From Thermoplasmata archaeon (lineage in GTDB: Archaea; Thermoplasmatota; Thermoplasmata; Lutacidiplasmatales; UBA184): DNA of 64,000 nucleotides. The notes under the pieces are model-generated. The model searched no databases and had not been told where the DNA came from. It worked only from the letters and a program-made list of their open reading frames with translations. The DNA is taken from positions 4,288 to 68,287 of the forward strand of contig JAKIVU010000005.1 of NCBI GenBank assembly GCA_022750375.1, given 5' to 3'. This document shows positions 44,698 to 56,799 of this stretch, piece by piece (the first letter of the stretch is position 1; each line of letters begins with the position of its first letter). The translations under genes and the position numbers were made by a program.

Positions 44698-45798
44698 GTG
44701 CGGCCTCGGTGGGTCCGTCTGATGGGGGGAACGAACAACGTGACCGCGGGGCGGCGCTATCGCCGGGCCCGCCGGCTGCGCCACGAACGGCACGGCGTCG
44801 TCGCCGTGATCGGCACGCTCCTCGCGCTGCTCGTCTTCTTCGCTCTGTTCGGGATCTTCCTCACCCAGTACGTCCCCCTCTGGATGACCGACAACGAGGC
44901 GCTGCTGACCGCCCAGGCCTCGACCTCGTTCGCCAATTTCAAATCGTTCTCGGACGCCCAGTATGCCCTGGGAGGTCCCCAGTCGTACGGCACGCCGTTC
45001 GTCATCAGCAGCATGGGGGTCCCGTTGATCGCCCAGCCGACCCAGGGCTCCCTGATCTTCCTCCCGAGCACCTGCCCCGGGGGCCTCTACTCCACGGGGA
45101 GCTTCCCCGCCGGCACCGCCGCGGACTACGGCCAGCCGGTCAACCCGGCGTACTGCGTCTTCGACAACTACACCGAATCGGTCGGTCCGGGCGGCGTCCC
45201 CAACTACGCGCAACAGATCGCCACCGGCGCCCTCGAGCTCATCCTGCCCAACCGGTACTACACTCCGGAGACGTTCTTCTTCGAGGACGACGCGGTCATC
45301 CAGAGCCAGAGCACCGGCTACCAGGTGATGGCGTTCCCGCCCCCGCTGAATGTGACGGTCGCCGCCACCAACACGACCGTCTCCGACAGCTTCCTTCAAC
45401 TGTACGGCAACGCCTCCAGCGTCTTTGGCCAAGGCTCCGTGGAGGTCTACAGCCACCTGAAGTTCACCCAGCTCGTGACGTCCAACGGCGCCGGGTCGCC
45501 GTTCAAGTTCACCTTCGAGATCGGTACGCAGTACCCCTGCGCGTGGGACCCGTTCCTTTACCACGTGCTCACGAACAGCGGGATCGCTCCGGCAAACTAC
45601 CGCCTCGCCAACAATTTCACGTCAGGGAACCCGGCAACGCTCAAGGAAACGCCGCTCCTCAGCAACTCCTATACGGCGAGTTCGTGCTTCAATACGAACG
45701 GGGCGACCACGATCCTCTCGTTCTCGATCACGAATGTCAACTACGCTCAAGTCTATCAAGCAGGACTGGAAGTAGGAATGGGCGTAGGGAGCACCTAG
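44698..45798 (+). CDS. archaeal type IV pilin-like protein (Pilin_N-type class III signal peptide)
   Basis: Arg-rich head, then RHG/VVAVIGTLLALLVFFALFGIF resembling the archaeal pilin N-terminal domain. Large Ser/Thr/Asn-rich extracellular part with several N-x-S/T sequons. First gene of the ATPase/platform operon. Confidence 0.65.
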   Translation: MRPRWVRLMGGTNNVTAGRRYRRARRLRHERHGVVAVIGTLLALLVFFALFGIFLTQYVPLWMTDNEALLTAQASTSFANFKSFSDAQYALGGPQSYGTPFVISSMGVPLIAQPTQGSLIFLPSTCPGGLYSTGSFPAGTAADYGQPVNPAYCVFDNYTESVGPGGVPNYAQQIATGALELILPNRYYTPETFFFEDDAVIQSQSTGYQVMAFPPPLNVTVAATNTTVSDSFLQLYGNASSVFGQGSVEVYSHLKFTQLVTSNGAGSPFKFTFEIGTQYPCAWDPFLYHVLTNSGIAPANYRLANNFTSGNPATLKETPLLSNSYTASSCFNTNGATTILSFSITNVNYAQVYQAGLEVGMGVGST

Positions 45799-45802
45799 GA
45801 CG

Positions 45803-47458
45803 ATGGCCGGCGGATCCGTACGAGTGAAGATCCCTCGGGCCGGTGTGCCCGAGGCCGAAACCTCCCCCCTCGACACCTCCCGCTCCCTCGAGACCCCGAC
45901 CGACGTGCCGGGGACGTTCATCACGGCGATGCCCCCGCTCCCGGAGCCGACGATGAAGGAGCTCGAGGTGAACGCGGTGAACCCGCCGTACTCGTACTCG
46001 CGCGTCAGCTACAACGACCGGACGAAGGAGTACCTCTACGAGGTCATCGAACCCCAGCTCACGCCCCGCGAACGCCAGCTCGTCGACCACCTGAAGGCGA
46101 CGTTGTCGATGATCCTGGGCAGCGACGTCGGCACCCTCTCGACCGCCGACAAACGCCTGTACCTTCGGGGAGAGGCGGAGGAGTACTTCCGGAGCCGGGG
46201 GATCTCGCTCAGCCCGATCTCGATGGAACGGATCGTCTACTACGTGCTCCGCGATTTCGTCGGGTATGGGCCCGTCGACGCGTTGATCCTGGACCCCCAG
46301 GTCGAGGACATCTCGTGCGATGGCGTCGACGTCCCGTTGTTCATCTTCCACGGAAAGTACGAGTCGATGAAGACGAACGTCGTCTTCGCGGACGAGAACG
46401 CCACGAACTCGTTCATCGTCATGCTCGGCCAGCGGTGTTCGAAGTCCGTCAGCGTCTCCGCCCCGATCCTGGATGGGACGACCCCCGAGGGCCACCGGGT
46501 CCAGGCGACGTACGCCCGGGAGATCACGACCCGGGGAGCGAGCTTCACGATCCGCCGATTCAAGGAACGGCCGTTCACCCCCGTCGACCTCGTCGTCATG
46601 GGCAGCGCCAGCGAGGAGATGGTCGCCTACTTCTGGCTCGCGGCCGAGCAGGGGGAATCGCTCATCATCTGCGGCGGGCCGGCCGCGGGGAAGACCAGCA
46701 CGCTCAACGCCATCGCGCTCTTCATTCCCCCGACCGCGAAGATCGTATCGATCGAGGATACCCGCGAGGTCAACCTTCCGCACGAGAACTGGATCCCCGG
46801 GGCCACCCGCAGCGGCACCGGCGACCGCGGCCCCGACGGGAAAGCCGCGGGGGAGGTCGACATGTTCGACCTCGTTCGAGCCGCCCTGCGGCAGCGCCCG
46901 AACTACATCATCGTGGGAGAGGTCCGGGGCAAGGAGACGTACACCATGTTCCAGGCGATGGCGACGGGCCACACGACCTACTCGACCATGCACGCGGACA
47001 GCGTGAAATCGATGGTCAACCGGCTCGAGAACCCGCCGATCAACACGCCGCGGATCCTCCTCTCCGCCCTGAACAACGTCATCATCCAGATCCAGACCCG
47101 CACCGACAAGGGCGTCGTCCGGCGCCTGAAGCAGGTGCTCGAGATCGTCGGGTTCGAACCCGAGACGAACGAGCTGATCACGAACACCGTCTACGAGTGG
47201 GACCCCGCGACCGACGGATTCGTGTTCAAGGGGCACTCGTTCCTGTTCGACAAGATCATGGAACTCAAGAACTTCACACCGGACGAGATGGAGGCCGAGT
47301 TCCAGCGCCGGAGCGCGGTCATCCGATACCTCGTCCAGCACCAGATCACCGACTACCGTCAGCTCTGGCGGACGATCGCGCAGTACTACCGGGACCCGGC
47401 CGAGGTCATGGCGCGGATCGGTGCGTTGAGCGCCACCGCCACCCCCAAGGAGGGATAG
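45803..47458 (+). CDS. type II/IV secretion-family ATPase (FlaI/PilB/TadA-like), copy 1
   Basis: 551 aa. Walker A ICGGPAAGKTSTLNA, IVSIEDTREVNL, Walker B IIVGEVRGKE, and His box TTYSTMHA. Confidence 0.9.
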   Translation: MAGGSVRVKIPRAGVPEAETSPLDTSRSLETPTDVPGTFITAMPPLPEPTMKELEVNAVNPPYSYSRVSYNDRTKEYLYEVIEPQLTPRERQLVDHLKATLSMILGSDVGTLSTADKRLYLRGEAEEYFRSRGISLSPISMERIVYYVLRDFVGYGPVDALILDPQVEDISCDGVDVPLFIFHGKYESMKTNVVFADENATNSFIVMLGQRCSKSVSVSAPILDGTTPEGHRVQATYAREITTRGASFTIRRFKERPFTPVDLVVMGSASEEMVAYFWLAAEQGESLIICGGPAAGKTSTLNAIALFIPPTAKIVSIEDTREVNLPHENWIPGATRSGTGDRGPDGKAAGEVDMFDLVRAALRQRPNYIIVGEVRGKETYTMFQAMATGHTTYSTMHADSVKSMVNRLENPPINTPRILLSALNNVIIQIQTRTDKGVVRRLKQVLEIVGFEPETNELITNTVYEWDPATDGFVFKGHSFLFDKIMELKNFTPDEMEAEFQRRSAVIRYLVQHQITDYRQLWRTIAQYYRDPAEVMARIGALSATATPKEG

Positions 47459-47463
47459 CGACC

Positions 47464-48441
47464 GTGCCCGCGACTGCCACGCTCCCGGCATCCGGAGTCA
47501 CCCGCGTGGCCGCCGACCCGGCCGTCCGTCCGGTCCGGCTGAAGCGAGGGCAGCAGCCGACCCACTCCACCCTGACCGGATTCCAGCGGTGGGCGTGGAG
47601 GACGTTCCGGGCCCGCGTGCTCGCGAAGCCCCCGGACCCGGTCCTCGAGGAGAACCTGGTCAAGGCCCATATGCGGATCCGGGCCGACGAGTTCATGGCG
47701 ACCGTCTACGCGACGACGGTGGTGGTGGCGATCGCGACGATCGTCGCGGGCGCCGTGATCGGTTTCATCTTCATCGACATGGGACAGTTCCTCTTCGGGG
47801 TCCTCATCGCGGTCGCCCTCCCGGTGTTCGGCTCGCTCGGTTCGTTCTTCGGTCTCCAGGGCAGTCCGGGCGGCACGGCGAAATCCCGGGGCCGGAAGAT
47901 CGACCAGAAGATCAGCCCGGCGATGAGCTTCGTGAGCGCGATGGCGTCGGCCGACGTGAACGTCGACCAGATCTTCAAGGAGCTCGGACGCCAGAAGATC
48001 TACGGCGAGGTCGCGAACGAGGCGTCGTGGATCTCCCGCGACACCGAGCTGCTGGGCGTCGATATCCTGACCGCGATCCGCAACGGCGCGCAGCGCAGCC
48101 CGTCGAAGCGGTTCCAGGACTTCCTGCAGGGCGTCGTGACCACCGCGACGAGCGGCGGCCAGTTGAAGCCGTACTTCCTGCTCAAGGCCGAGCAGTACGA
48201 GCGGGAGAACAAGCTCGCGCAGCTCCAGCGCGTCGAGACGATGGGCCTGCTCGCGGAGACGTTCGTCACCGTCGTGGTGGCGTTCCCGCTGTTCCTGGTC
48301 ATCATCATCGCGATCTTCGCGATCATCGGCGGCGGCGGCACGTTCATGCTCGACATCCTCTGGGCGATCGTTGGCCTGATGATCCCGCTCTCCCAGTTCG
48401 GTTTCATTTTCTTTATGTATACGCTCGCGCAGGAGATGTAA
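47464..48441 (+). CDS. T2SSF-domain platform protein (FlaJ/TadB-like), half 1
   Basis: The GTG at 47464 is in frame with the end of the 708-aa track ORF. TM pair, cytoplasmic helical T2SSF domain (ISPAMSFVSAMASADVNVDQIFKELG...), and a C-terminal TM pair. Confidence 0.75.
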   Translation: MPATATLPASGVTRVAADPAVRPVRLKRGQQPTHSTLTGFQRWAWRTFRARVLAKPPDPVLEENLVKAHMRIRADEFMATVYATTVVVAIATIVAGAVIGFIFIDMGQFLFGVLIAVALPVFGSLGSFFGLQGSPGGTAKSRGRKIDQKISPAMSFVSAMASADVNVDQIFKELGRQKIYGEVANEASWISRDTELLGVDILTAIRNGAQRSPSKRFQDFLQGVVTTATSGGQLKPYFLLKAEQYERENKLAQLQRVETMGLLAETFVTVVVAFPLFLVIIIAIFAIIGGGGTFMLDILWAIVGLMIPLSQFGFIFFMYTLAQEM

Positions 48442-48442
48442 G

Positions 48443-49420
48443 ATGGCGACCGCAACGGTTCCGGCGTCCGTCCGCAAGGTCAAGTCGCTGACCAGCGCGG
48501 AGGTGAACACCGACGAGTCGTCCGGGATCACGCGAGAGACGTGGCTGCTGATCGGCGGCATGGCGGTCGCGATCGTGCTGTGGATCATCGCGGGACTCAA
48601 CTACACCGGGTCGGTGGACTGGGAGATGCGGCCCGGCGAAGGACCGGGAGCGAACCCGGCGATCGACTTCTTCGTCATCGGCCTGCTCGCCCTCATCGCC
48701 CCGTACGGGTTCGCGATGAGCGCGAAGCTCCGCCGCATCTCGAACATCGAAGAGCGACTCCCCGACTTTCTCCGCGACGTCGCCGAAGCCGGTCGGTTCG
48801 GGATGACCCTGCCCGACGCGATCGTCGTCGCGAGCGGGGGACGGTACGGCCTCCTGACAGACGAGATCAAGAAGATGGCGAGCCAGCTCGAGTGGGGCGT
48901 CCCCGTCGCCACCTCGCTCCGGCTCTTCGAGGAGCGCGTACCGACCCCGCTCGTCCAGCGGGTCGTCTCGATCATCACCCGGGCGAACGAAGCCGGCGGG
49001 AACGTCGCGGACGTGCTGACGATGGTCGCCCACGATACCCGCGAGGCCCAACTCGAGGCCCAGGGCCGTCAGATCTCGATGCTGACCTACGTGACGGTCA
49101 TCTACATCGCGTTCTTCGTCTTCCTCGTCACGATCTACATCATGGCGGCGGTCTTCCTGCCGCAGATGATCCTCGCCGGCCAGGGCGTCGCCTCGTCGTC
49201 CCTGTCGGGGGCGGGCGCCTTGACGCTGCAGTTCACCTTCGTGCCGGTCCTGTTCCTCGCGTTCATGGTCGCCGTCATCGTCCACGCGGTCGGGGACGGG
49301 GTCATGGCCGGGATCCTGTTCAACGGACGGATCGCGGAGGGCCTGCAGCACGCGACCATCATGCTCGCGACCGGCTGGCTGATCATGCGCTTCGTCGTGC
49401 CGATCCTGAACGTGGGGTAA
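48443..49420 (+). CDS. T2SSF-domain platform protein (FlaJ/TadC-like), half 2
   Basis: 325 aa. LPDFLRDVAEAGRFGMTLPDAI...VQRVVSIITRANEAGGNVADVL is a T2SSF domain flanked by TM helices. It starts 1 nt after the previous stop. Confidence 0.8.
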   Translation: MATATVPASVRKVKSLTSAEVNTDESSGITRETWLLIGGMAVAIVLWIIAGLNYTGSVDWEMRPGEGPGANPAIDFFVIGLLALIAPYGFAMSAKLRRISNIEERLPDFLRDVAEAGRFGMTLPDAIVVASGGRYGLLTDEIKKMASQLEWGVPVATSLRLFEERVPTPLVQRVVSIITRANEAGGNVADVLTMVAHDTREAQLEAQGRQISMLTYVTVIYIAFFVFLVTIYIMAAVFLPQMILAGQGVASSSLSGAGALTLQFTFVPVLFLAFMVAVIVHAVGDGVMAGILFNGRIAEGLQHATIMLATGWLIMRFVVPILNVG

Positions 49421-49433
49421 CGGAGCGGAATCG

Positions 49434-51206
49434 ATGGCAGGATCGGTCGCACCCCAACCCGAGGGCTCGGAGCCGGACGTGCCCGAGCCCGAGGAGATCC
49501 CCGCGGCGCGCAAGCGCAGTTCCTCCTCGGCGTGGCTCCGCCTCGGCGCCTCCATGCGCAAGGGGTCGTCCGACCCCCGCCCCGTCAAGCTCGCCCGACT
49601 CGGCGTCTCGGGCCAGGGCAGTCAGGGGGAGATCACCCCGATCCCTCCGCTCAACGACCCCGGTCTGAAGGAGCTCGATCTGGCCCCGATCCGTCCCGGT
49701 GTCTCGTTCATCCGGATCACGTACCACAACACGCGGAACGAGTACCTCTACGAGGTCATCGAGCCCCCGCTCTCCCCGATCGAGAAGGACCTGACCGAAC
49801 GGCTCCGGATCGTGCTCATCGACGACTTCCAGCCGCTCACCGAGATCGACCCCGAGTCGAAGCGTCGGGAGCTGCGTCGGATGGTCGACCACAAGCTCCA
49901 GGAGTGGGAGCTCGGCCCGGGCCCGACCACCAAGGGCCGGATCCTCTACCACCTCGAACGGGACTTCATCGGCTACGGGATCGTCGACGTCCCGATGACC
50001 GATACCGAGGTCGAGGACATCTCGTGCGACGGGGTCGGCATTCCCCTGTTCATCTACCACCGGAAGTACGGCTCGATCCGCTCGAACATGAAGTTCCACG
50101 ACTCGAAGGAGCTCGACGACTACGTCGTCTGGCTCGCCCAGCGGTCGGGGAAGCACATCTCCGTCGCGAGCCCGATCCTGGACGCGACCGTCCCGGACGG
50201 CTCCCGTCTCCAGGCGACGCTCGGAACCCACGTGACGAAGCGCGGCAGCTCGTTCACGATCCGCAGGTTCCGCGACAATCCGTTCACGCCGGTCGACCTG
50301 CTCAAGTTCAAGACGATGAGTCCGGAGATGATGGCGTATCTCTGGATCTCGATCGAGAACGGCCAGTCGATGATGGTCTGCGGCGGCACGGCGAGCGGCA
50401 AGACCACGACCCTCAACGCGACCCTCCTGTTCATCCCGCCGCAGATGAAGATCGTCTCGATCGAGGATACCCGCGAGCTCAACCTGCCGCACGAGAACTG
50501 GGTGCCGTCCCTTACGCGCGCCGGGTTCGGCGCGAAGAACCTCACGAGCGGGAAGGCCCCCGGCGAGATCGACATGTTCGACCTGCTGGCGGCGGCGCTC
50601 CGTCAGCGCCCCCAGTACCTGATGGTCGGAGAGGTGCGGGGCGCGGAGGCGTTCATCGTCTTCCAGGCGATGGCGACGGGGAAGACCTGCTACACCACGT
50701 TCCACGCGGAGAGCGTCAGCGCGATGGTCCACCGGATGGAGAACCCGCCGATCTCGCTGCCGCGCTCGCTCGTCTCGGCGCTGAACCTCGTGCTCCTCCA
50801 GCGGCAGGTGAAGGTCGGGACGAAGATGACCCGGCGCGTCCAGTCGCTCACCGAGATCGTCGGTCTCGACCCCGAGACGAACGAACTGATCACGAACTCC
50901 GTCTACTCGTGGAACCCCGCGGACGACACGTTCCTCTACAGCGGCCACTCGTACGTCTACGAGCGGGTCGCGATGATGAAGAACCTCTCGATGAAGGAGA
51001 TGGAGCGCGAGGTCCGCAACCGCGCAGAGATGATGGAGTACCTCGTCTTCCGTGACGCGCAGGCGACCCGCCTGAAGCCGTTCACGCACCGCGACGTCGG
51101 CCAGCTGGTCGCCTTCTACTACAAGGAGCCGGAACGGGCGCTCTCCGAAGCCCGCGCCGAGCTCGCGAAGGCGAAATCGGCGGCGCCGGCCCCCGCGGCG
51201 CGATAA
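49434..51206 (+). CDS. type II/IV secretion-family ATPase (FlaI/PilB/TadA-like), copy 2
   Basis: 590 aa. Walker A VCGGTASGKTTTLNA, IVSIEDTRELNL, LMVGEVRGAE and TCYTTFHA. Clearly paralogous to 45803-47458 along the whole core. Confidence 0.9.
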   Translation: MAGSVAPQPEGSEPDVPEPEEIPAARKRSSSSAWLRLGASMRKGSSDPRPVKLARLGVSGQGSQGEITPIPPLNDPGLKELDLAPIRPGVSFIRITYHNTRNEYLYEVIEPPLSPIEKDLTERLRIVLIDDFQPLTEIDPESKRRELRRMVDHKLQEWELGPGPTTKGRILYHLERDFIGYGIVDVPMTDTEVEDISCDGVGIPLFIYHRKYGSIRSNMKFHDSKELDDYVVWLAQRSGKHISVASPILDATVPDGSRLQATLGTHVTKRGSSFTIRRFRDNPFTPVDLLKFKTMSPEMMAYLWISIENGQSMMVCGGTASGKTTTLNATLLFIPPQMKIVSIEDTRELNLPHENWVPSLTRAGFGAKNLTSGKAPGEIDMFDLLAAALRQRPQYLMVGEVRGAEAFIVFQAMATGKTCYTTFHAESVSAMVHRMENPPISLPRSLVSALNLVLLQRQVKVGTKMTRRVQSLTEIVGLDPETNELITNSVYSWNPADDTFLYSGHSYVYERVAMMKNLSMKEMEREVRNRAEMMEYLVFRDAQATRLKPFTHRDVGQLVAFYYKEPERALSEARAELAKAKSAAPAPAAR

Positions 51207-51238
51207 GCGTATTCCCGCCGGCGCCTCGGACGCCCCCG

Positions 51239-52111
51239 ATGGACCGTCCGTTCGCCCGCCTCCCGACCGGTCGCGGCCGCACGGTCACGCTCTGGCACGA
51301 GGACGCGGTCGAGGGCATGGCCGGCCGGCTCGGACGGCGGCGCGCGGACGTGGTCGTCACGAGTCCCCCGTACAATCTCGGCGTGCCGTACCGCTCCTAC
51401 GCCGACTCGCGGCCGCGCGCGCAGTACCTCGCGTGGCTCGGGTCGGTCGCCGCCGCGGTCGACCGGGTCCTCGCCCGGAACGGTTCGTTCTTCCTGAACA
51501 TCGGCGGACGGCCGAAGGACCCGTGGCTTCCGTGGGACGTCGCGCGGGAGGTCGGCCGGCGTTTCGTGCTCCAGAATGTCGTCCACTGGGTCAAGTCGAT
51601 CGCGATCGACCGGGGGTCCGCGGGCCGCGCCGCCGCGCTCGAGGGAGACCTCGCGCTCGGCCACTACAAGCCGCTCGTTTCGGACCGGTACCTCCACGGG
51701 GCGCACGAGTACGTCTTTCAGTTCACCCGGCGGGGGGACGTCCGGCTCGACCGCCTGGCGATCGGCGTACCGTACCAGGACAAGTCGAACGTCGACCGGT
51801 GGCAGCGTGCCGGAACGGACAAGCGCTGCCGAGGGAACACGTGGTTCCTCCCGTACTCCACGATCCGCGAGCGCGCGCGAGACCGTCCCCATCCCGCGAC
51901 GTTCCCCCCGGAGCTCCCGGAGTGGTGCCTGCGACTCCACGGTCTCGGACGGGTCCGTCTCGCCGTGGACCCGTTCGTCGGGATCGGCGCCTCCGCGGTC
52001 GCGGCGGTGCGCTGCGGGGTGGATTTCGTCGGATTCGAACTGGACGCCGAGTACCTGCGGGTCGCGGCGACGCGCGTGCGGGCGGAGCGGCGGCCCGGGC
52101 GGCCGGCCTAG
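51239..52111 (+). CDS. DNA methyltransferase, N4/N6 (beta-class, SPPY motif IV before motif I)
   Basis: 290 aa. VVVTSPPYNLG (motif IV) near the N-terminus, HPATFPPELPEWC, and DPFVGIGASAVAA (motif I) near the C-terminus. Confidence 0.85.
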   Translation: MDRPFARLPTGRGRTVTLWHEDAVEGMAGRLGRRRADVVVTSPPYNLGVPYRSYADSRPRAQYLAWLGSVAAAVDRVLARNGSFFLNIGGRPKDPWLPWDVAREVGRRFVLQNVVHWVKSIAIDRGSAGRAAALEGDLALGHYKPLVSDRYLHGAHEYVFQFTRRGDVRLDRLAIGVPYQDKSNVDRWQRAGTDKRCRGNTWFLPYSTIRERARDRPHPATFPPELPEWCLRLHGLGRVRLAVDPFVGIGASAVAAVRCGVDFVGFELDAEYLRVAATRVRAERRPGRPA

Positions 52112-52533
52112 CCCTTCTCGTCGTCCCCGGTCGTCGGGGTCGACCACTCGCGCATCGGGGTCCGCTTGACGCCCGCGGCGCTCGCGAAGGCGTTCCGAGT
52201 CCCTTCTTTCGCCCGGTGACCGGCGCTCACGAAGGCGTCCCGCGTCGCGGCTCCGGCCTTGGAGGCGCTCGAGCCGATGGCGATGCCGGCGTTCGCGAAA
52301 TGCTGGGGGATCCGGCGCACCTCTTCGTCCATTCGCTTGCCGAGGGTCGCGAAATCGTCCTGGATGTCGAGCGCGAGGTACTTCGCTTCTTTGGCGGTGG
52401 TGTGACCGAGCTTCTCGATCTTCCGGTCGAGGTCAGTGAATTCGCTCGCGAAATCGCGGCCGATCCCTCCGGCGGCCCGCCGCATTTCGCTCAGGTGCTG
52501 GCGGAACTGGGCTTCATCTCGACTGTCGGACAC
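52108..52533 (-). CDS. small helical protein, unknown function (last gene of the AAA+/vWA operon; start uncertain)
   Basis: The GTG at 52533 gives a 141-aa Ala/Lys/Glu-rich helical protein. The upstream part of the 184-aa track ORF overlaps the vWA gene tail. Confidence 0.45.
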   Translation of the reverse strand: MSDSRDEAQFRQHLSEMRRAAGGIGRDFASEFTDLDRKIEKLGHTTAKEAKYLALDIQDDFATLGKRMDEEVRRIPQHFANAGIAIGSSASKAGAATRDAFVSAGHRAKEGTRNAFASAAGVKRTPMREWSTPTTGDDEKG

Positions 52534-52600
52534 GGTCTCTCCCGCCGGTCGAACCGGAGGTTCGGAAGATAAAGGTTGATGGGCACTGGCAACGGGGCCG

Positions 52601-54007
52601 CTATCCGCCCATCCGGCGGTCGGCGCGCCGGCGGCGCGCGGCGCCCGGACGCGACGCAGCACGAGGCGCCGGCGGGGGCGCAGCGGTAGCGGAGACCCGG
52701 CGCTCCGTCTCGGTCCCGTGCGCCCACCGGACGAGCAGCTCGACCCCGAGGCGGACGGGGTCGGTCACGACCAGCTCTCCGCCCATCGTGCGCGCGACGG
52801 TCCGGGCGGCTGTCTCGTATTCGGGATGGTCGCTTTTCAAGAGAATCACGGTCGACTTGAGCGGAGAGACCGTCGCGAGCTCCCGGGCGCGGTCGAGGGC
52901 GTGCTCCATCGCGACGTCGAGCTGCCCGGAGCGTACGCGCCCATCGCCGGCGGTGTACGCCTCCGGGAGTCCGTCGGTGATCAGGTAGAATTCGCGGCGC
53001 GTGGCGCGAGAGGCCCGCAGGAGGAGGTGGGCGGCCCGCAACGCCTCCGCGGTGTTCGTGAACGCCCCCGCCTTGCACTCCCACAGTTCCACGAGGTCGA
53101 GCACCTGGACCTCGTTGTCGAAAGCGAAGACGTCGACCGTGGCGTCCGGGTACCGGCGGCGGACCGCCACGTAGAGCGCGAGGAGCGCCTTCTTCGCGGC
53201 GTCGAGCTTTCCGTTCTCGCTCATGCTCCCCGACCGGTCGAAGGCGAGGACGATGTGCACCCGCTCGCTCGTCACCTCGCGGTAGACGTAGCTCGTGGCT
53301 TCGTCGATGTGCCGCTGGCCGGCGAGCCGGGCCGCGAGCAGCGAGCTCGGCAGGTCGAGCCGTGCGACCTCTTCGGCGCGCCGCAGGCGGGCTTTCTCGT
53401 AGACCCCGGTCGACCCTCCGCCCCGGAGGGAGAGGCGGATATCCCCGGGGAGGCGGCGGCTCTCCTCCTCCAGCAAGAGGCGGGCGAACCGTTCGACCAG
53501 CCCGTACGTGACGGCGAGTTCCCCTCCGCGCTCGGCGACGAAGCCGCGTTCCTTCAGCTCGCGTTCGAGTCGGTGCTCCTCGCCCGCGCGTACCCGGGCT
53601 TCCGTGTCGGCCGCCGCGCGCCGCTCCGCCTCGCGCCGTTCTTCCTCGAGCAGTCGGCGCTGGGTCTCGGCCGCCCGCCGCTTCTCCTCGGCGGCGCGTT
53701 CGAGCTCCCGTTCCTGGGTGCGGAGCGACCCGGAGACGGTCTGCGATAGTTCGTCCTTCTGGGGTCCGGAGAGCCGCGCCAGCGCGTCGCCGAGTTCGGA
53801 CGCTCCGAGCGCCCGCCCGTCGGGCGACGGCACCGCGATCGATACCCGTCGCTCCTTGCGGGGGGGAGGGGTCGGGCCCCGGCGCCCGAAGAGACCCTTG
53901 AGCCACGCGATCAAACGCGCGAAAGCGGCGCGGAGGCGGGCGCCGATCCCGGGTTTCGGTGGAGGCTGATTCCAGGAGGCGGCCGGGAGCAGCAGCGCCG
54001 CGCTCAC
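52601..54007 (-). CDS. vWA domain protein with charged coiled-coil N-region (coding frame probably extends upstream to about 54394, see findings)
   Basis: 468 aa from the first canonical start (GTG 54007). MIDAS VLAFDRSGSMSENGKL, with downstream ITDGLPE. Long Glu/Arg coiled-coil segment. Confidence 0.8.
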   Translation of the reverse strand: MSAALLLPAASWNQPPPKPGIGARLRAAFARLIAWLKGLFGRRGPTPPPRKERRVSIAVPSPDGRALGASELGDALARLSGPQKDELSQTVSGSLRTQERELERAAEEKRRAAETQRRLLEEERREAERRAAADTEARVRAGEEHRLERELKERGFVAERGGELAVTYGLVERFARLLLEEESRRLPGDIRLSLRGGGSTGVYEKARLRRAEEVARLDLPSSLLAARLAGQRHIDEATSYVYREVTSERVHIVLAFDRSGSMSENGKLDAAKKALLALYVAVRRRYPDATVDVFAFDNEVQVLDLVELWECKAGAFTNTAEALRAAHLLLRASRATRREFYLITDGLPEAYTAGDGRVRSGQLDVAMEHALDRARELATVSPLKSTVILLKSDHPEYETAARTVARTMGGELVVTDPVRLGVELLVRWAHGTETERRVSATAAPPPAPRAASRPGAARRRRADRRMGG

Positions 54008-54392
54008 TTCACCGAGGAGATTGTCCGGAAGGCGCGACCAGTCGATCGTGCGCGCCGCCCGGAGCCGCCCCTCGAGCTCGGCGATCCGCTGGGCGACCTC
54101 TTCGTCGCTCCTCCGCGCGACCCGGTCGAGCTCGACGCGACGGCGGTCGTAGTCTTCCTGGAGGCGAGTGGTCCGTCGGGCAGCTTGACGACGGAGACGT
54201 TCCCGGAGCCGGGCGAGACGGTCCGCGAGCTCCCGGTCCCGGGTCGCGGTATCCCGCAGGAGCCGACGGGCCCCGTCGATCCCCTCCTCGGCGAGGGCGC
54301 GGATCAGGGCGGCCCGCTCGACCGCGTCGAGGAGGTCGTCGGAGATGACGTCGTCCGCGAACTCGGCGCAGTCGGGCAGCTCGATCGCGTCG

Positions 54393-55928
54393 CTAGAGGG
54401 GGGCGTCGTCGTCGTCCTCGTCCTTGCACGAGAAGAGGGAGTACTCCTCGAGGAGTCGGAAGATGTTGGCGGCGACGTCCATCGGTGGCACGGCAGTCGC
54501 CGGATGCTCCCGTTCGGTCACGTACCGGACGAACGTCCGGAACTGGGGAAACACGGTGGTGTCCGAGGCGGCCTGGGTCCGCAGCTCGGCATCATCCTTG
54601 AGCCGGCGTCCCTCGCCGACCAGCGCTTGCGCGTCGGCCGAGCTCTCCTTCAGTACTCCCCGGTAGAACCGGCACCAGTAGACGCCGGCGCTCCGCTTGA
54701 GCGACGGGTCGAGGTACTGGTCGATGAACTCCGCGACGCGCTTCTCGTTCTGGCGGAACGAATCGCCGCTGCGCGCGCGGATCCGCCCGCGCATCGCGTG
54801 CACAAGACCCGCCTTCAGGTCCGCGCTCGTCGGGACCGGGTGGTCCGCGAGCACCCCGATCGCGGCGGTTCGAGCCGCGACATCGAGCAGCGTGCGGTTC
54901 GACCCGACCTCCCCGATGTCCGGATTGTCCTCGCTCATCCGCAGGCGCCACGCTTCGATGACGCGGACCCCGGCATCAGTGAGCACCTCTGGAACGTACT
55001 GGGTCGGGTCGTCGCTCCGTCCGAGGGCGACGATCCGACGGTTGTCCGCGTGGCGGTCGTTGTACCCGATGTGCAGGCTGGTGAGACGGTCGGACAGCGG
55101 GTCGTTGATGTTGTCGAGGTCCGAAAGGTTGGACGTGCAGACCGCGACGAACAGTCCCGGGAAACTCTCGCGCGACTTGGAGGGTGTTACGGTCCCCTCT
55201 TGCAGCGCCTGGAGCAACACGTTCTGGGTGCCCAGCGGCAGCTTTCCGATCTCGTCGACCAAGAGGAAGCCGCGATTCGCCTGCAGCAGTTTTCCAGGCT
55301 CGAAGACGAGCGGGCTCATCGGGTCGCCGACCTCTTCGAGTTTTCGAAGGTTGATGTTGCCGGTCAAGTGGTCGGGGAAGACCTCCGAACTGCCCTGCAG
55401 TCGGGCGTATCCGTACCCTTCCCGGAGCAGCACGTAGCTGGCGGGGACCTTCGCCGGGTCAACCGACGCAGGGTCGAACCGGGTCGGGTCGCCGTTCGGT
55501 GCGAATCGTCGCTCGCAGATCGGGCACGCCGGGAACCGGGCGGCGACTGCGGGGTCGACCATGCTGAGCGGATGGTCCTGCACCGGGCAACCGTCGACCG
55601 TCCAGACTCCCTTGGGGAAGAGGTTCCACAGGTCCTTCGCGAGACTCGTCTTGCCAGCGCCGGACGGCCCGAAGAAGAGCACATGCGCACCCGAGACGAG
55701 GGCCGTGAGGAGGTCCTCGTAGGTAGGTTCGGGAAGGACCGTTCCGGGGAACAACGCTCGGACCGCCTCGTTCCGGTCGAGGCCCTTTGCGCGCAACCCC
55801 TCGAGCGTCCGAAGGATCTCCCCCCGGAACCGTTCGGCCGGGCTCGCCACCGTCACGCGGGAGGATTTCAGTTGGGCGGCCGTGGCGTGAGTTCCGGGAG
55901 CCGGCGCCGGGAGGGCCGAATCGACCAC
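54393..55928 (-). CDS. AAA+ ATPase (Mg-chelatase/Lon/sigma54-interaction-like helix-2-insert clade) with an inserted Cys-cluster
   Basis: 511 aa. Walker A FFGPSGAGKTSLA, Walker B plus the following helix GFLLVDEIGKLPLGTQNVLLQALQEGTVTP, sensor-1 VAVCTSN, a CPVQDH...CPICERRF insertion, and an acidic C-terminus DEDDDDAPL. Confidence 0.8.
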   Translation of the reverse strand: MVDSALPAPAPGTHATAAQLKSSRVTVASPAERFRGEILRTLEGLRAKGLDRNEAVRALFPGTVLPEPTYEDLLTALVSGAHVLFFGPSGAGKTSLAKDLWNLFPKGVWTVDGCPVQDHPLSMVDPAVAARFPACPICERRFAPNGDPTRFDPASVDPAKVPASYVLLREGYGYARLQGSSEVFPDHLTGNINLRKLEEVGDPMSPLVFEPGKLLQANRGFLLVDEIGKLPLGTQNVLLQALQEGTVTPSKSRESFPGLFVAVCTSNLSDLDNINDPLSDRLTSLHIGYNDRHADNRRIVALGRSDDPTQYVPEVLTDAGVRVIEAWRLRMSEDNPDIGEVGSNRTLLDVAARTAAIGVLADHPVPTSADLKAGLVHAMRGRIRARSGDSFRQNEKRVAEFIDQYLDPSLKRSAGVYWCRFYRGVLKESSADAQALVGEGRRLKDDAELRTQAASDTTVFPQFRTFVRYVTEREHPATAVPPMDVAANIFRLLEEYSLFSCKDEDDDDAPL

Positions 55929-56079: not shown

Positions 56080-56799
56080 ATGGCCGACAAGGAAGGCCCG
56101 GCGAAGAAGCCGGCGATGGCCCGGACCGTCAAGGACAAGTGGCGGTCGAAGCACTGGTTCAAGGTCCGCGCCCCCGGTCTCTTCCAGCACGTGGAGCTCG
56201 GCGAGACGGTCGCGACCGAACCCGAGCAGGTGATCGGCCGCACGCTCGAGACCACGCTTCCTGAACTGTCGGGCGGCGGAGATTCCGGGAAAGCCCACAT
56301 CAAGCTGCGGTTCCGCATCGAGCGCCTCGGCGGCGATGGGGTCGCCGAAGCCCGGTTCATCGGCCACGAGCTGACCTCCGACTACGTCCGCCGGCTCGCG
56401 CGCCGGAAGCGTTCCAAGATCGATCTGTCCCTCACCGTGACCACGAAGGACGGGGTCCAGATCATCCTGAAGCCGGTGGCGGTCGGCGAGCAACGACTCC
56501 AGACCCGGCTCCGCGCCGAACTACGCCACAAGATGGTGTCGATCCTCCTCGAGGAGGCCGCGAAGCGGTCGTCTCCCGAGTTCGTCCGGGAGATGCTCCA
56601 GGGGGAGCTCTCGAAAGTCCTCGCCCATGGGCTGAAGACACTCTATCCGCTGAAGAAGATCGAGATCCGGCGGTCGGAAGTGCTCGGCACGATCGCGGAC
56701 GAGCTCCCGTTGCCCGAACCGACCGCCCTTCCCGAGGTGCCGACGGCCCCCGACGCGGTGGCCCCGGTCGCCGACGGCGGGGACGCCACGGTAGCGTAG
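56080..56799 (+). CDS. rps3ae: 30S ribosomal protein S3Ae (eS1)
   Basis: 239 aa. VKDKWRSKHWFKVRAP, GRTLETTL and SDYVRRLARRKRSKID blocks. Confidence 0.9.
   Translation: MADKEGPAKKPAMARTVKDKWRSKHWFKVRAPGLFQHVELGETVATEPEQVIGRTLETTLPELSGGGDSGKAHIKLRFRIERLGGDGVAEARFIGHELTSDYVRRLARRKRSKIDLSLTVTTKDGVQIILKPVAVGEQRLQTRLRAELRHKMVSILLEEAAKRSSPEFVREMLQGELSKVLAHGLKTLYPLKKIEIRRSEVLGTIADELPLPEPTALPEVPTAPDAVAPVADGGDATVA

What the first reader, a model, noticed from the sequence alone, without database searches (positions are those of the whole stretch)
54008..54520. 387 nt of coding-looking sequence between the AAA+ stop and the first vWA start has no initiator; a C6 run sits at the junction
The vWA ORF's first ATG/GTG/TTG is the GTG at 54007. 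The same frame stays open upstream to a TGA at 54518-54520.

The 129 codons from 54394 down to 54008 show strong G/C third-position bias. They translate to a plausible helical, charged sequence: SDAIELPDCAEFADDVISDDLLDAVERAALIRALAEEGIDGARRLL...RIAELEGRLRAARTIDWSRLPDNLLGE. I checked these codons by hand and found neither a stop nor a canonical start.

The AAA+ gene ends ...GAC GAC GCC CCC CTC TAG at 54393. Its run of six C (54398-54403) lies two codons before the stop. A +1 slip of tRNA-Pro on CCC_C, or a one-C shorter run, would read ...DDAPSSDAIEL... That fuses the ATPase, an acidic linker and the vWA domain into a protein of about 1100 aa. This is the domain order of Mg-chelatase ChlD/BchD.

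Alternatives are non-canonical initiation (CTG/ATC), a homopolymer sequencing error, or a recently split gene.
Basis: seen in the sequence. Interest (0 to 1): 0.65.

Follow-up and report, generated by a model that had tools for sequence, protein, structure and literature searches.

The report
Startless vWA gene behind AAA+ stop
In a whole clade of soil and peat archaea, a gene for a vWA-domain protein has lost its own start signal and directly abuts the stop codon of the ATPase gene in front of it, one base out of frame. The ribosome therefore most likely reaches it by slipping forward one base at that stop, which would be a rare conserved +1 frameshift in Archaea.

Summary
On the minus strand the AAA+ ORF (55928-54393) ends GAC GAC GCC CCC CTC TAG. 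The vWA frame is +1 and is open across that stop. It has no ATG/GTG/TTG for 129 codons (54394-54008).

All 75 junctions without an in-frame fusion (74 Thermoplasmata species plus the window) show the same fixed +1 offset and zero spacer. Only 24 of the 75 have any canonical start before the conserved LPDC motif, and those starts are scattered at below-background frequency. Two independent assemblies have an identical junction.

The startless segment evolves as protein in the vWA frame (16 synonymous against 2 nonsynonymous changes in a 94.5%-identical relative). The last three AAA+ codons are frozen at synonymous sites.

Four outgroup lineages have ordinary separate genes with a G-rich Shine-Dalgarno-like stretch and a GTG, TTG or ATG start just before LPDC. 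The arrangement here is therefore derived, not a recent split.

Best reading (about 0.5): programmed +1 frameshifting at CUC_UAG_C, giving a 511-aa ATPase and a 1108-aa ATPase-linker-vWA fusion. This is analogous to chlD frameshifting but in another family and direction.

Main rival: non-canonical (ACG) initiation inside the overlap. Three in-frame "fusions" occur only in long-read MAGs and are probably assembly errors.

The parts
54393..55928 (-). AAA+ ATPase ORF (511 aa, GTG start, TAG stop), the zero-frame product. It belongs to the ChlI/MoxR/PrkA-like branch of AAA+ proteins.
   Evidence: Pfam AAA_PrkA E=2.7e-11, Mg_chelatase E=3.5e-9, AAA_3 28.9 bits. The closest solved structure is BchI 1g8p, E=1.5e-7. 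The 120 orthologues listed are mostly 511 aa (range 485-550).
55032..55679 (-). AAA+ core (residues 84-299, matching the PrkA-type AAA domain).
54392..54410 (-). Conserved junction motif GAC GAC GCC CCC CTC TAG C, the candidate recoding signal. The C6 run is 54403-54398, CTC is 54398-54396 and TAG is 54395-54393.
   Evidence: CTC or GTC plus stop in 72/75. Ala GCC 58/63 with no GCG, Pro CCC 65/65 and Leu CTC 67/67, whereas the same amino acids elsewhere use C- and G-ending codons about equally. Base +4 is C in 58/75.
54393..54398 (-). Proposed +1 shift site CUC_UAG. The U at 54395 is skipped and AGC (54394-54392) is read next, giving ...DDAPL-SDAIELPDC...
   Evidence: Inference. The vWA-frame codons 2-3 after the stop already show amino-acid conservation with synonymous variation.
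54008..54394 (-). 129-codon startless coding segment (+1 frame). It is the conserved N-terminal helical region of the vWA protein (LPDC...DDVxSDDLLD...ALxRALAEEG, then a long helix).
   Evidence: dN/dS is 0.11-0.28 against close relatives. There are 16 synonymous and 2 nonsynonymous changes against L112. AlphaFold2 pLDDT block means are about 76-90 for residues 21-110.
52601..54007 (-). The vWA ORF as a gene caller would take it (468 aa from the GTG at 54007). This is an N-terminally truncated call of the real reading frame, which runs 52601-54394.
   Evidence: P0015. Called starts of orthologues scatter over about 160 residues.
52970..53254 (-). vWA domain (Pfam VWA_2, residues 382-476 of the 598-aa translation).
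   Evidence: 28.3 bits, cut-off 27. Weak Foldseek matches to vWA folds, TFIIH p44 and Rpn10.
54415..54419 (-). GAGGA, a Shine-Dalgarno-like pentamer inside the acidic tail coding region. It lies 2-8 nt upstream of ACG codons in the vWA frame. It is relevant only to the rival explanation (non-AUG initiation).
   Evidence: Read. It is a by-product of Glu/Asp codons, so it is not independent evidence.

Best explanation
The AAA+ and vWA reading frames form one recoded expression unit.

Most ribosomes terminate at the UAG and release the 511-aa ATPase. A fraction shift +1 when CUC is in the P site and the stop codon is in the A site, within the sequence GCC CCC CUC UAG C. They skip the U, read AGC, and continue for 597 more codons.

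The long product is about 1108 aa: AAA+ ATPase, then the acidic linker DEDDDDAPL-SDAIE, then a helical region, then the vWA domain. The frameshift efficiency would set the ratio of free ATPase to vWA-carrying ATPase.

Shown here:
- The frame relation.
- The lack of a conserved initiator.
- Protein-level selection on the startless segment.
- Nucleotide-level freezing of the last three codons.
- The derived nature of the arrangement.

Inferred: that the transition is ribosomal, that it occurs at the stop codon, and that both products are functional.
For: 1. All 75 junctions without an in-frame fusion (74 species plus the window) have the vWA frame at +1 with zero spacer. The stop follows CTC or GTC directly in 72 of them.
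2. Only 24 of 75 have any ATG/GTG/TTG between the upstream +1-frame stop and LPDC. These starts are at scattered positions. Their rate is 0.0060 per codon, against an off-frame background of 0.0096. In contrast, most of the 120 AAA+ orthologues listed are 511 aa.
3. The startless segment is selected as protein in the +1 frame. Against L112 there are 16 synonymous and 2 nonsynonymous changes, like the flanking ORFs (71/11 and 67/8); the other two frames give 0/17 and 2/15. dN/dS is 0.11-0.28. Conserved residues with free third positions begin within a few codons of the stop.
4. Synonymous freezing is confined to the last three AAA+ codons (GCC/CCC/CTC). Third positions vary normally up to codon -8.
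5. Four outgroup lineages have separate genes with canonical starts 4-14 codons before L[PL]DC. Their spacers are 0-17 nt and their frame offsets are 0, 0, 1 and 2. A G-rich Shine-Dalgarno-like stretch is visible before the start in three of them (L081, L109, L110). The fixed +1 startless state is therefore a clade-specific innovation.
6. The site has the form of classical +1 sites: a Leu CUY codon, then a stop, then C. The base after the stop is C in 58 of 75.
7. There is precedent for the same logic. chlD genes give an AAA+ product and an AAA+-vWA product by frameshifting, including in archaea (PMC3711429, PMC5009743, PMC9227772).
Against: - There is no direct evidence of a fused protein.
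- No conserved RNA structure was found from -60 to +120 (RNAalifold gave an empty structure). No Shine-Dalgarno-like element lies at prfB-like spacing.
- tRNA-Leu re-pairing from CUC to UCU would be poor (two G·U pairs and one A·C).
- In three species the stop is displaced by 1-2 codons (P-site GCC or GGC).
- No trustworthy in-frame fused orthologue exists. The three found are all long-read MAGs, are polyphyletic, and one carries a second 1-nt deletion beside another C6 run. No protein of 1000 aa or more is among the best 150 of 318 hits in a search of 1.84 billion representatives. A metagenome pattern scan found no in-frame variant.
- +1 frameshifting has not been demonstrated for any cellular archaeal gene (PMC8211752).
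- An ACG start in the overlap would explain the same comparative data.
Confidence: 0.5

Rival explanations
1. Non-canonical initiation gives a separate vWA protein of about 600 aa. Ribosomes would start, or restart after terminating at UAG, on a near-cognate codon inside the short overlap. The only candidates are the ACG codons created in the +1 frame by GAC GAC (vWA-frame codons -6 to -4). These lie 2-8 nt downstream of a GAGGA Shine-Dalgarno-like stretch. A weak start would keep vWA levels low relative to the ATPase.
For: - It explains the same comparative facts: no canonical start, fixed frame, and dual-coding freezing of the last codons.
- Asp -5 and Asp -4 (GAC GAC, which gives ACG ACG) are the most conserved residues of the tail, at 100% and 97%.
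- GAGG[A/G] is present upstream in nearly all species.
- All relatives outside the clade make vWA as a separate protein.
- Absence of natural in-frame fusions fits two separate proteins.
Against: - ACG initiation is not documented in archaea (own knowledge). The 2021 review lists no non-canonical initiation events demonstrated in Archaea (PMC8211752).
- GAGGA and ACG are automatic by-products of an acidic Glu/Asp tail in a high-GC genome.
- The would-be N-terminal residues PPS vary (TPS, PAS, LPS) and have no counterpart in the outgroups. Protein-level constraint therefore poorly explains the total absence of GCG, CCG and CTG.
- ACG to ATG needs one synonymous GAC-to-GAT change, yet it is seen in only 2 species.
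Confidence: 0.23
2. The fused product is the same but the shift occurs in the C run. Either tRNA-Pro slips +1 on CCC_C, or RNA polymerase slips on the C6 run and makes an mRNA one C shorter.
For: CCC followed by C is present in 65 of 75 species and a C6 run in 54 of 75. The three species with a displaced stop keep GCC CCC CTC intact. The CCC codon is 100% frozen.
Against: - Six species (GCC CGC CTC TGA) have no Pro codon or C run at all. Four have CCC_G. C-run length ranges from 3 to 6.
- A CUC codon in the A site gives no obvious pause, since CTC is the commonest Leu codon here.
- This model does not explain why the stop sits immediately after CTC in 72 of 75.
- C6 is short for known transcriptional slippage (own knowledge).
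Confidence: 0.12
3. There is no special mechanism. Each species would use its first available downstream ATG/GTG/TTG (GTG 54007 here) and make N-terminally truncated vWA proteins of different lengths, with the upstream segment untranslated.
For: Gene callers do exactly this. Called lengths run from 468 to 629 aa.
Against: The segment carries some of the most conserved residues of the family (L7 P8 C10 D15 D16 V17 D21 L22 D24). It is under purifying selection in that frame. It is confidently predicted as helical. First starts range from -371 to +628 nt relative to the AAA+ stop, so some would delete up to about 200 conserved residues.
Confidence: 0.03
4. Sequencing or assembly error, or a pseudogene.
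For: A homopolymer sits at the junction. Three long-read MAGs differ by 1 nt there.
Against: The junction is identical in about 70 non-long-read assemblies from different species and in two independent close relatives with zero gaps over 3.6 kb. Both ORFs are under purifying selection. The deviant assemblies are the long-read ones.
Confidence: 0.01

Closest known systems
chlD (Mg/Co-chelatase medium subunit) genes expressed by programmed frameshifting (Antonov et al. 2013, PMC3711429; Kuznetsov et al. 2022, PMC9227772; Atkins et al. 2016, PMC5009743)
   Same: An AAA+ ORF is followed by an overlapping vWA ORF and the pair is annotated as two genes. One mRNA would yield a short AAA+ protein and a long AAA+-linker-vWA protein. 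It occurs in archaea as well as bacteria. The site is under purifying selection at the nucleotide level.
   Different: In chlD the shift is -1 on A_AAA_AAR or poly-A. In-frame fused homologues exist, and frameshifting was measured at 10-63% in E. coli reporters. Here the shift would be +1 at a stop codon in a C-rich context. The proteins are not ChlD/ChlI orthologues (29 bits against a 499.55 cut-off). No chlH/cobN was seen among the annotated neighbours. No reliable fused homologue exists, and the ancestors were two ordinary genes.
prfB (bacterial RF2) and antizyme +1 frameshifting at a stop codon
   Same: A zero-frame stop sits in the A site with the continuation in the +1 frame. The shift codon is a Leu CUY codon followed by U of the stop, then C (CUU_UGA_C against CUC_UAG_C). 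The heptamer is conserved across many species.
   Different: No Shine-Dalgarno element lies 3 nt upstream and there is no 3' pseudoknot. CUC to UCU re-pairs poorly, unlike CUU to UUU. No obvious autoregulatory logic exists. The organism is archaeal, with an aRF1-type release factor.
dnaX tau/gamma
   Same: Recoding yields two products that share an AAA+ N-terminal module and differ by a C-terminal extension, and it fixes their ratio.
   Different: In E. coli dnaX the shift (-1) makes the shorter product. Here the shift would make the longer one.
MoxR-type AAA+ / vWA two-gene pairs (RavA-ViaA, NorQ-NorD, CbbQ-CbbO, CoxD-CoxE)
   Same: An adjacent AAA+ ATPase gene and vWA partner gene. The outgroup relatives of this locus have exactly this layout, with a start codon of their own. 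Some orthologues carry a VWA_CoxE Pfam hit.
   Different: In the clade studied here the vWA gene has no initiator or spacer and is locked in the +1 frame behind the ATPase stop.

Membership tests
Mg-chelatase subunit D (ChlD/BchD, TIGR02031) | Whole-protein match to the family model above its curated cut-off | tested here: not met
   TIGR02031 scores 29.3 bits against a cut-off of 499.55 for the AAA+ part. The vWA part has no NCBIfam hit.
Mg-chelatase subunit D (ChlD/BchD, TIGR02031) | Domain order: ChlI-like AAA+, then an acidic/proline-rich linker, then a C-terminal vWA (integrin-I-like) domain | tested here: inconclusive
   The order is reproduced only if the two frames are joined. Evidence: AAA+ (Mg_chelatase Pfam E=3.5e-9; BchI 1g8p E=1.5e-7), the DEDDDDAP tail, and VWA_2 at 28.3 bits. 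No joining has been demonstrated.
Mg-chelatase subunit D (ChlD/BchD, TIGR02031) | Genomic association with chlH/cobN and tetrapyrrole genes | tested here: not met
   The neighbours are ribosomal protein S3Ae, a DNA methylase and T2SSE/T2SSF genes. S3Ae synteny is kept in the close relative L112 and in outgroup L081. Only about 8 kb on either side was examined.
chlD-type programmed frameshift genes | Upstream AAA+ ORF and overlapping downstream vWA ORF that lacks a conserved initiator | tested here: met
   75 of 75 junctions. Canonical starts are absent in 51 of 75 and scattered in the rest.
chlD-type programmed frameshift genes | Conserved -1 slippery A_AAA_AAR / poly-A site | tested here: not met
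   The junction is GCC CCC CTC TAG C and the frame change is +1.
chlD-type programmed frameshift genes | In-frame fused homologues in other species | tested here: inconclusive
   Three in-frame loci exist (L032, L033, L037), but all are long-read MAGs, they are polyphyletic, and L037 carries another indel next to a C6 run. No protein of 1000 aa or more is among the best 150 hits to the representative proteins. None was found in the metagenome pattern scan.
Stop-codon-dependent +1 PRF (prfB / antizyme type) | A zero-frame stop codon forms part of a conserved shift site, with the ORF continuing in the +1 frame | tested here: met
   The +1 frame is open across the stop in 75 of 75. The stop directly follows CTC or GTC in 72 of 75.
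Stop-codon-dependent +1 PRF (prfB / antizyme type) | The P-site codon allows tRNA re-pairing in the +1 frame | tested here: inconclusive
   CUC to UCU would give G·U, A·C and G·U. GUC, GCC and GGC variants exist. The pairing argument is inference only.
Stop-codon-dependent +1 PRF (prfB / antizyme type) | A cis stimulator (Shine-Dalgarno element 3 nt upstream, or a 3' structure) | tested here: not met
   RNAalifold finds no consensus structure from -60 to +120. The nearest Shine-Dalgarno-like GAGGA is about 16 nt upstream of CUC. The only conserved element is the 15-nt GACGACGCCCCCCTC.
Stop-codon-dependent +1 PRF (prfB / antizyme type) | Frameshifted product demonstrated experimentally | not testable with these tools
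   This needs proteomics, ribosome profiling or reporter assays.
MoxR AAA+ / vWA two-gene systems | MoxR-type AAA+ (Pfam AAA_3) with an adjacent vWA gene that has its own start | tested here: not met
   AAA_3 scores 28.9 bits against a cut-off of 27, and the genes are adjacent. The own-start criterion fails in this clade but is met in outgroups L081, L109, L110 and L111.

The most novel reading that the evidence does not exclude
This would be a clade-wide, conserved programmed +1 ribosomal frameshift at a stop codon in a cellular archaeal gene, the first of its kind. It would have evolved from an ordinary two-gene AAA+/vWA operon by loss of the spacer, the Shine-Dalgarno element and the start codon. 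One mRNA would then yield a free ATPase and an ATPase-vWA fusion in a ratio fixed by a short C-rich signal (GAC GAC GCC CCC CUC UAG C), without any RNA structure.
Probability: 0.5. Interest if true: 0.78.

Novelty: new variant of a known kind. Interest (0 to 1): 0.68.

Why it matters
1. According to a 2021 review (PMC8211752), recoding in Archaea is documented only for selenocysteine and pyrrolysine insertion, one cellular -1 frameshift (fucA1) and a few viral cases. A +1 site conserved across 74 species would add a new class. It would also give a compact 12-18 nt signal for studying how an aRF1-type termination system competes with frameshifting.

2. Whatever the mechanism (frameshift or non-AUG initiation), expression here is non-standard. 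Annotation pipelines truncate this vWA protein by about 50 to 210 residues in a different way in each genome. The window's 468-aa call loses 129 conserved codons.

3. The outgroups show the starting point, a normal operon. The locus therefore records how a recoding-dependent gene arrangement arises. It parallels, and arose independently from, the chlD case, in which an AAA+ protein and its vWA-bearing form come from one gene.

Tried and rejected
- **Homopolymer or assembly error in the window: rejected.** The junction is identical in about 70 non-long-read species and in two independent close assemblies.

- **In-frame orthologues as proof of a functional fusion: rejected.**
  - L032, L033 and L037 read CTC-AGC, with exactly the T of TAG missing.
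  - They are 3 of the 7 long-read MAGs, against 0 of the 71 other junctions. This gives a hypergeometric p of about 5e-4 (my calculation).
  - They are not monophyletic. L033 is 96.7% identical to L038, which keeps TAG.
  - L037 has a second 1-nt deletion next to another C6 run.
  - CTAG is not generally lost in these contigs, so the cause is unresolved. I do not count them as evidence.

- **Pyrrolysine or read-through of UAG: rejected.** TAG is the commonest ordinary stop in the window (19 of 36). TGA replaces it in 14 species. The conserved protein lies in the +1 frame, not the zero frame.

- **Downstream stimulatory RNA structure: none found**.

- **Translational bypass from CUC to the Leu codon of LPDC: rejected.** The skipped codons 2-3 show amino-acid conservation with synonymous variation.

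- **The motif as a general feature of these genomes: rejected.** CCCCTCTAG occurs only twice elsewhere in 1.58 Mb (both strands).

- **Searches that led nowhere.**
  - The third homologous-protein search, with the conceptual fusion from L032, returned nothing.
  - The metagenome scan for in-frame variants gave 24 chance hits and no homologue.
  - A PDB sequence search with the vWA part gave no hit.
  - Foldseek against the PDB gave no hit at E<=1e-3.
  - PADLOC gave only generic AAA+ hits.
  - Literature searches found no description of this locus.
Full report
**1. What is in the window**

On the minus strand an AAA+ ATPase ORF runs from 55928 to 54393 (511 aa). It ends ...FSCKDEDDDDAPL with the codons GAC GAC GCC CCC CTC TAG. 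TAG is at 54395-54393 and the C6 run is at 54403-54398.

The next gene lies in the +1 frame. That frame is open from a TGA at 54520-54518 down to its stop at 52601. Its first ATG/GTG/TTG is the GTG at 54007. The 129 codons from 54394 to 54008 have no stop and no canonical start. Every coordinate and reading in the finding is correct.

Pfam places the first protein among ChlI/MoxR/PrkA-like AAA+ proteins (AAA_PrkA 2.7e-11, Mg_chelatase 3.5e-9, AAA_3 28.9 bits). It places a VWA_2 domain at residues 382-476 of the second protein. The nearest solved structure to the ATPase is BchI, 1g8p, at 1.5e-7. Homologue names show that the organism is a high-GC Thermoplasmata archaeon known only from MAGs.

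**2. The startless segment is real protein-coding sequence**

- The 120 closest vWA homologues have called N-termini scattered over about 160 residues, with lengths from 468 to 629 aa. The sequence PPSSxAxxLPDCxxxxDDVxSDDLLDAxDRxALxRALAEEG is nevertheless conserved wherever the call happens to include it. An alignment shows invariant residues from L7, P8 and C10 onward.
- In contrast, most of the 120 AAA+ orthologues listed are 511 aa.
- An independent metagenome assembly, L112, is 94.5% identical to the window over 3601 nt with no gaps. Its junction is identical (GCCCCCCTCTAG|CGACGC), and so is that of L113.
- Between the window and L112 the 129-codon segment has 18 substitutions, distributed 3/0/15 over codon positions in the vWA frame. 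That is 16 synonymous and 2 nonsynonymous codon changes. The flanking ORFs look the same (AAA+ 71/11; annotated vWA 67/8). Read in the other two frames, the segment gives 0/17 and 2/15.
- dN/dS against nine close species is 0.11-0.28.
- AlphaFold2 on the family alignment predicts residues 21-110 as helices, with pLDDT block means of about 76-90.

**3. The junction is conserved across a clade**

A scan of one genome per GTDB species returned 80 loci, all Thermoplasmata MAGs. Of these, 77 include the junction. Three of the 77 are in-frame and are discussed in section 6. The statements below cover the other 74 species plus the window, i.e. 75 junctions.

- The vWA frame is +1 relative to the AAA+ frame and is open across the AAA+ stop in every case. 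There is no spacer.
- The last sense codon is CTC in 68 and GTC in 4, followed directly by TAG (61) or TGA. In three species the stop is displaced by one or two codons. The base after the stop is C in 58.
- The first canonical start in the vWA frame lies anywhere from -371 to +628 nt relative to the stop.
- Only 24 of 75 have any canonical start upstream of LPDC, at scattered positions. The density is 0.0060 per codon, which is not above the off-frame background of 0.0096.
- Synonymous sites in the AAA+ tail vary normally up to codon -8. The last three codons are frozen: Ala GCC 58/63 with no GCG at all, Pro CCC 65/65, Leu CTC 67/67. Elsewhere in the same alignment CCC and CCG, and GCC and GCG, are used about equally.
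- Downstream, in the vWA frame, amino acids are conserved while third positions vary. LPDC begins at codon 5. Codons 2-3 (Ala, then a hydrophobic residue) already behave as translated.

**4. The arrangement is derived**

An exhaustive search of 1.84 billion representative proteins listed the best 150 of 318 hits, and none is 1000 aa or longer. It shows that more distant relatives (33-51% identity) are proteins of about 600 aa. Those examined begin with M or V four to fourteen residues before L[PL]DC.

Their contigs show ordinary adjacent genes:

| Locus | Identity / GC | Junction | Frame offset |
|---|---|---|---|
| L081 | 51% identity, same S3Ae synteny | ...GAC ACC CCT TGA GCGGGAGGCGACG GTG GAC GCC ATC TGC CTG CCG | 1 |
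| L109 | GC 0.71 | TGA, 17-nt spacer, TTG | 2 |
| L110 | GC 0.58 | GGGGGGAA TAG GTG | 0 |
| L111 | GC 0.34 | TAA TCA ATG | 0 |

In L081 a GGGAGG Shine-Dalgarno sequence precedes a GTG start. That GTG aligns with the AGC codon that overlaps TAG in the window. L109 and L110 also have a G-rich stretch before the start; the 3-nt TCA spacer of L111 does not.

The ancestors therefore had two genes, each with a start codon, and variable spacers and frames. The clade that contains the window lost the spacer and the start, and locked the frame at +1. This refutes 'recently split gene'.

**5. Mechanism**

The data require a non-standard way of translating the vWA frame from, at the latest, the second codon after the stop.

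*Best fit: +1 ribosomal frameshifting with the stop codon in the A site.*
- CUC would be in the P site, U would be skipped and AGC read next.
- The products would be a 511-aa ATPase and a 1108-aa ATPase-DEDDDDAPL-SDAIE-helical-vWA fusion.
- This uses the one feature common to nearly all species, [C/G]UC directly followed by a stop (72 of 75).
- It explains why the stop keeps its exact register and why the preceding codons are frozen at the nucleotide level.
- It has the form of classical +1 sites (CUU_UGA_C in prfB). Stop-plus-C is the leakiest context for eRF1-type factors (own knowledge). aRF1 is the archaeal homologue of eRF1.

- It gives nearly the same protein.
- CCC followed by C is absent in 10 of 75 species. 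Six have GCC CGC CTC TGA and four have CCC GTC TAG.
- The C run ranges from 3 to 6. I therefore rank it, and transcriptional slippage, lower.

*Weak points of the frameshift model.*
- No consensus RNA structure exists from -60 to +120.
- No Shine-Dalgarno-like element lies at prfB spacing.
- CUC to UCU re-pairs only through G·U and A·C contacts.
- The frozen motif extends to GAC GAC, five codons upstream. This hints at a nascent-peptide or mRNA-channel effect that I cannot test.

**6. In-frame 'fusions'**

Three loci (L032, L033, L037) read ...GCC CCC CTC AGC GAC..., which translates as DDAPL-SDA. This is exactly the product predicted for a +1 shift at the stop. I do not accept them as evidence, for these reasons:

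- All three are megabase-scale long-read MAGs. That they are Nanopore assemblies is my inference from their names and contig sizes.
- They are 3 of the 7 long-read assemblies, against 0 of the 71 other junctions.
- They are polyphyletic in a vWA tree. L033 is sister to L038, which is 96.7% identical and keeps TAG. L037 is sister to L027, L035 and L044.
- L037 has a second uncompensated 1-nt deletion beside another C6 run within the AAA+ gene.

On the other side, CTAG is not systematically lost in those contigs, and L033 has no other coding indel against L038. The question stays open until the reads are inspected. A pattern scan of 241 million metagenome records for either in-frame variant found only chance matches.

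**7. The main rival**

Initiation on a near-cognate codon within the overlap would give a separate vWA protein. Synonymous variation upstream of codon -8 excludes translation of the +1 frame further upstream. The only candidates are therefore the ACG codons that GAC GAC creates in the +1 frame. These sit 2-8 nt behind a GAGGA stretch.

This fits every comparative observation, including the lack of natural fusions and the very high conservation of the two Asp codons.

Against it:
- ACG and GAGGA are automatic consequences of an acidic tail in a GC-rich genome.
- The putative N-terminal PPS varies (TPS, PAS, LPS) and has no counterpart in the outgroups. Dual coding therefore explains the frozen third positions poorly.
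- ACG initiation has no archaeal precedent that I know of.

I put the possibilities at:
- stop-codon frameshift: about 0.5
- a shift within the C run: 0.12
- non-canonical initiation: 0.23
- everything else: the remainder

**8. Comparison with known systems**

The closest analogue is chlD. There an AAA+ ORF and an overlapping vWA ORF, annotated as two genes, are joined by -1 frameshifting on A_AAA_AAR. This happens in bacteria and in Methanocaldococcus and Methanococcus. Measured efficiencies were 10-63% in E. coli, and fused homologues exist elsewhere (PMC3711429, PMC5009743, PMC9227772).

The present case shares the architecture and the two-products-from-one-mRNA logic. It differs in direction (+1), in site type (stop codon in a C-rich context), in family and in origin:
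- The proteins are not ChlD or ChlI by model score: TIGR02031 gives 29 bits against 499.55, and TIGR02030 gives 24.8 against 466.95.
- No chelatase large subunit lies nearby.
- The ancestors were two ordinary genes.

The 2021 review of archaeal recoding lists only fucA1 (-1) as a demonstrated cellular frameshift. It mentions +1 frameshifting only as 'appears to be present' in the virus HSTV-2 (PMC8211752).

The function of the ATPase/vWA pair is unknown. It is not a recognised defence system. It sits next to ribosomal protein S3Ae in the window, in the close relative L112 and in the nearest outgroup.

**9. Verdict**

Whichever mechanism applies, expression of this vWA frame is non-canonical and conserved across at least 74 species. 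I classify it as a new variant of a known kind and score interest at 0.68.

Noticed in passing
L032:5990-6010, L033:5990-6010, L037:5990-6010; L037:4860-4880: Three long-read MAG contigs lack exactly the T of the junction TAG, which makes an in-frame 1110-aa ORF. L037 also has a 1-nt deletion right after another C6 run inside the AAA+ gene (TTCCCCCC-TGC against TTCCCTCCGTGC in L044). This may be a systematic basecalling or consensus error next to C6 runs, or it may be real alleles.
   Followed up: partly
window 52604-52621 (minus strand); alignment A1 last columns: The vWA protein ends in an invariant ...R(R)xDRRMGG. R590, D593, R594, R595, M596 and G597 are invariant and G598 nearly so. The nearest outgroup, P0242, also ends in GG. 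A conserved C-terminal di-glycine on a 600-aa protein is unusual, and its meaning is unknown.
   Followed up: no
window 56080-56796 (+); L081:459-1211; L112:1-680: A ribosomal protein S3Ae gene lies divergently upstream of the AAA+ gene in the window, in a close relative, and in the 51%-identity outgroup. The synteny is conserved although the junction architecture differs.
   Followed up: partly
window 45788-52108 (+): Downstream and convergent to the vWA gene lie two T2SSE-type ATPases (45788-47455 and 49434-51203), a T2SSF-type membrane protein (48383-49417) and an N6/N4 DNA methylase (51239-52108). These probably form an archaeal type IV pilus or archaellum-like cluster plus an orphan methyltransferase.
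   Followed up: no
window 52111-52662 (minus strand); L112:4227-4652: An ORF of 141-184 aa with no Pfam hit follows the vWA gene. In the window it overlaps the vWA 3' end by about 60 nt, and in L112 it is called as a gene. I did not determine whether it is real or belongs to the same unit.
   Followed up: no
window 55540-55620 (AAA+ residues ~113-140): The AAA+ protein carries a CPVQDHP...CPIC four-Cys/His insertion between Walker A and Walker B, possibly a zinc ribbon. It is conserved in the relatives whose sequences I read (L032, L033).
   Followed up: no
(query L032:4468-7803): The word-indexed homologue search with the 1112-aa conceptual fusion returned no hit at E<=1e-20, although its two halves each find hundreds of hits. 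That search was lost.
   Followed up: no
P0388, P0282: Some database 'proteins' matching this family are frame-scrambled translations of error-rich contigs. They mix AAA+, off-frame and vWA segments and could be mistaken for natural fusions.
   Followed up: partly
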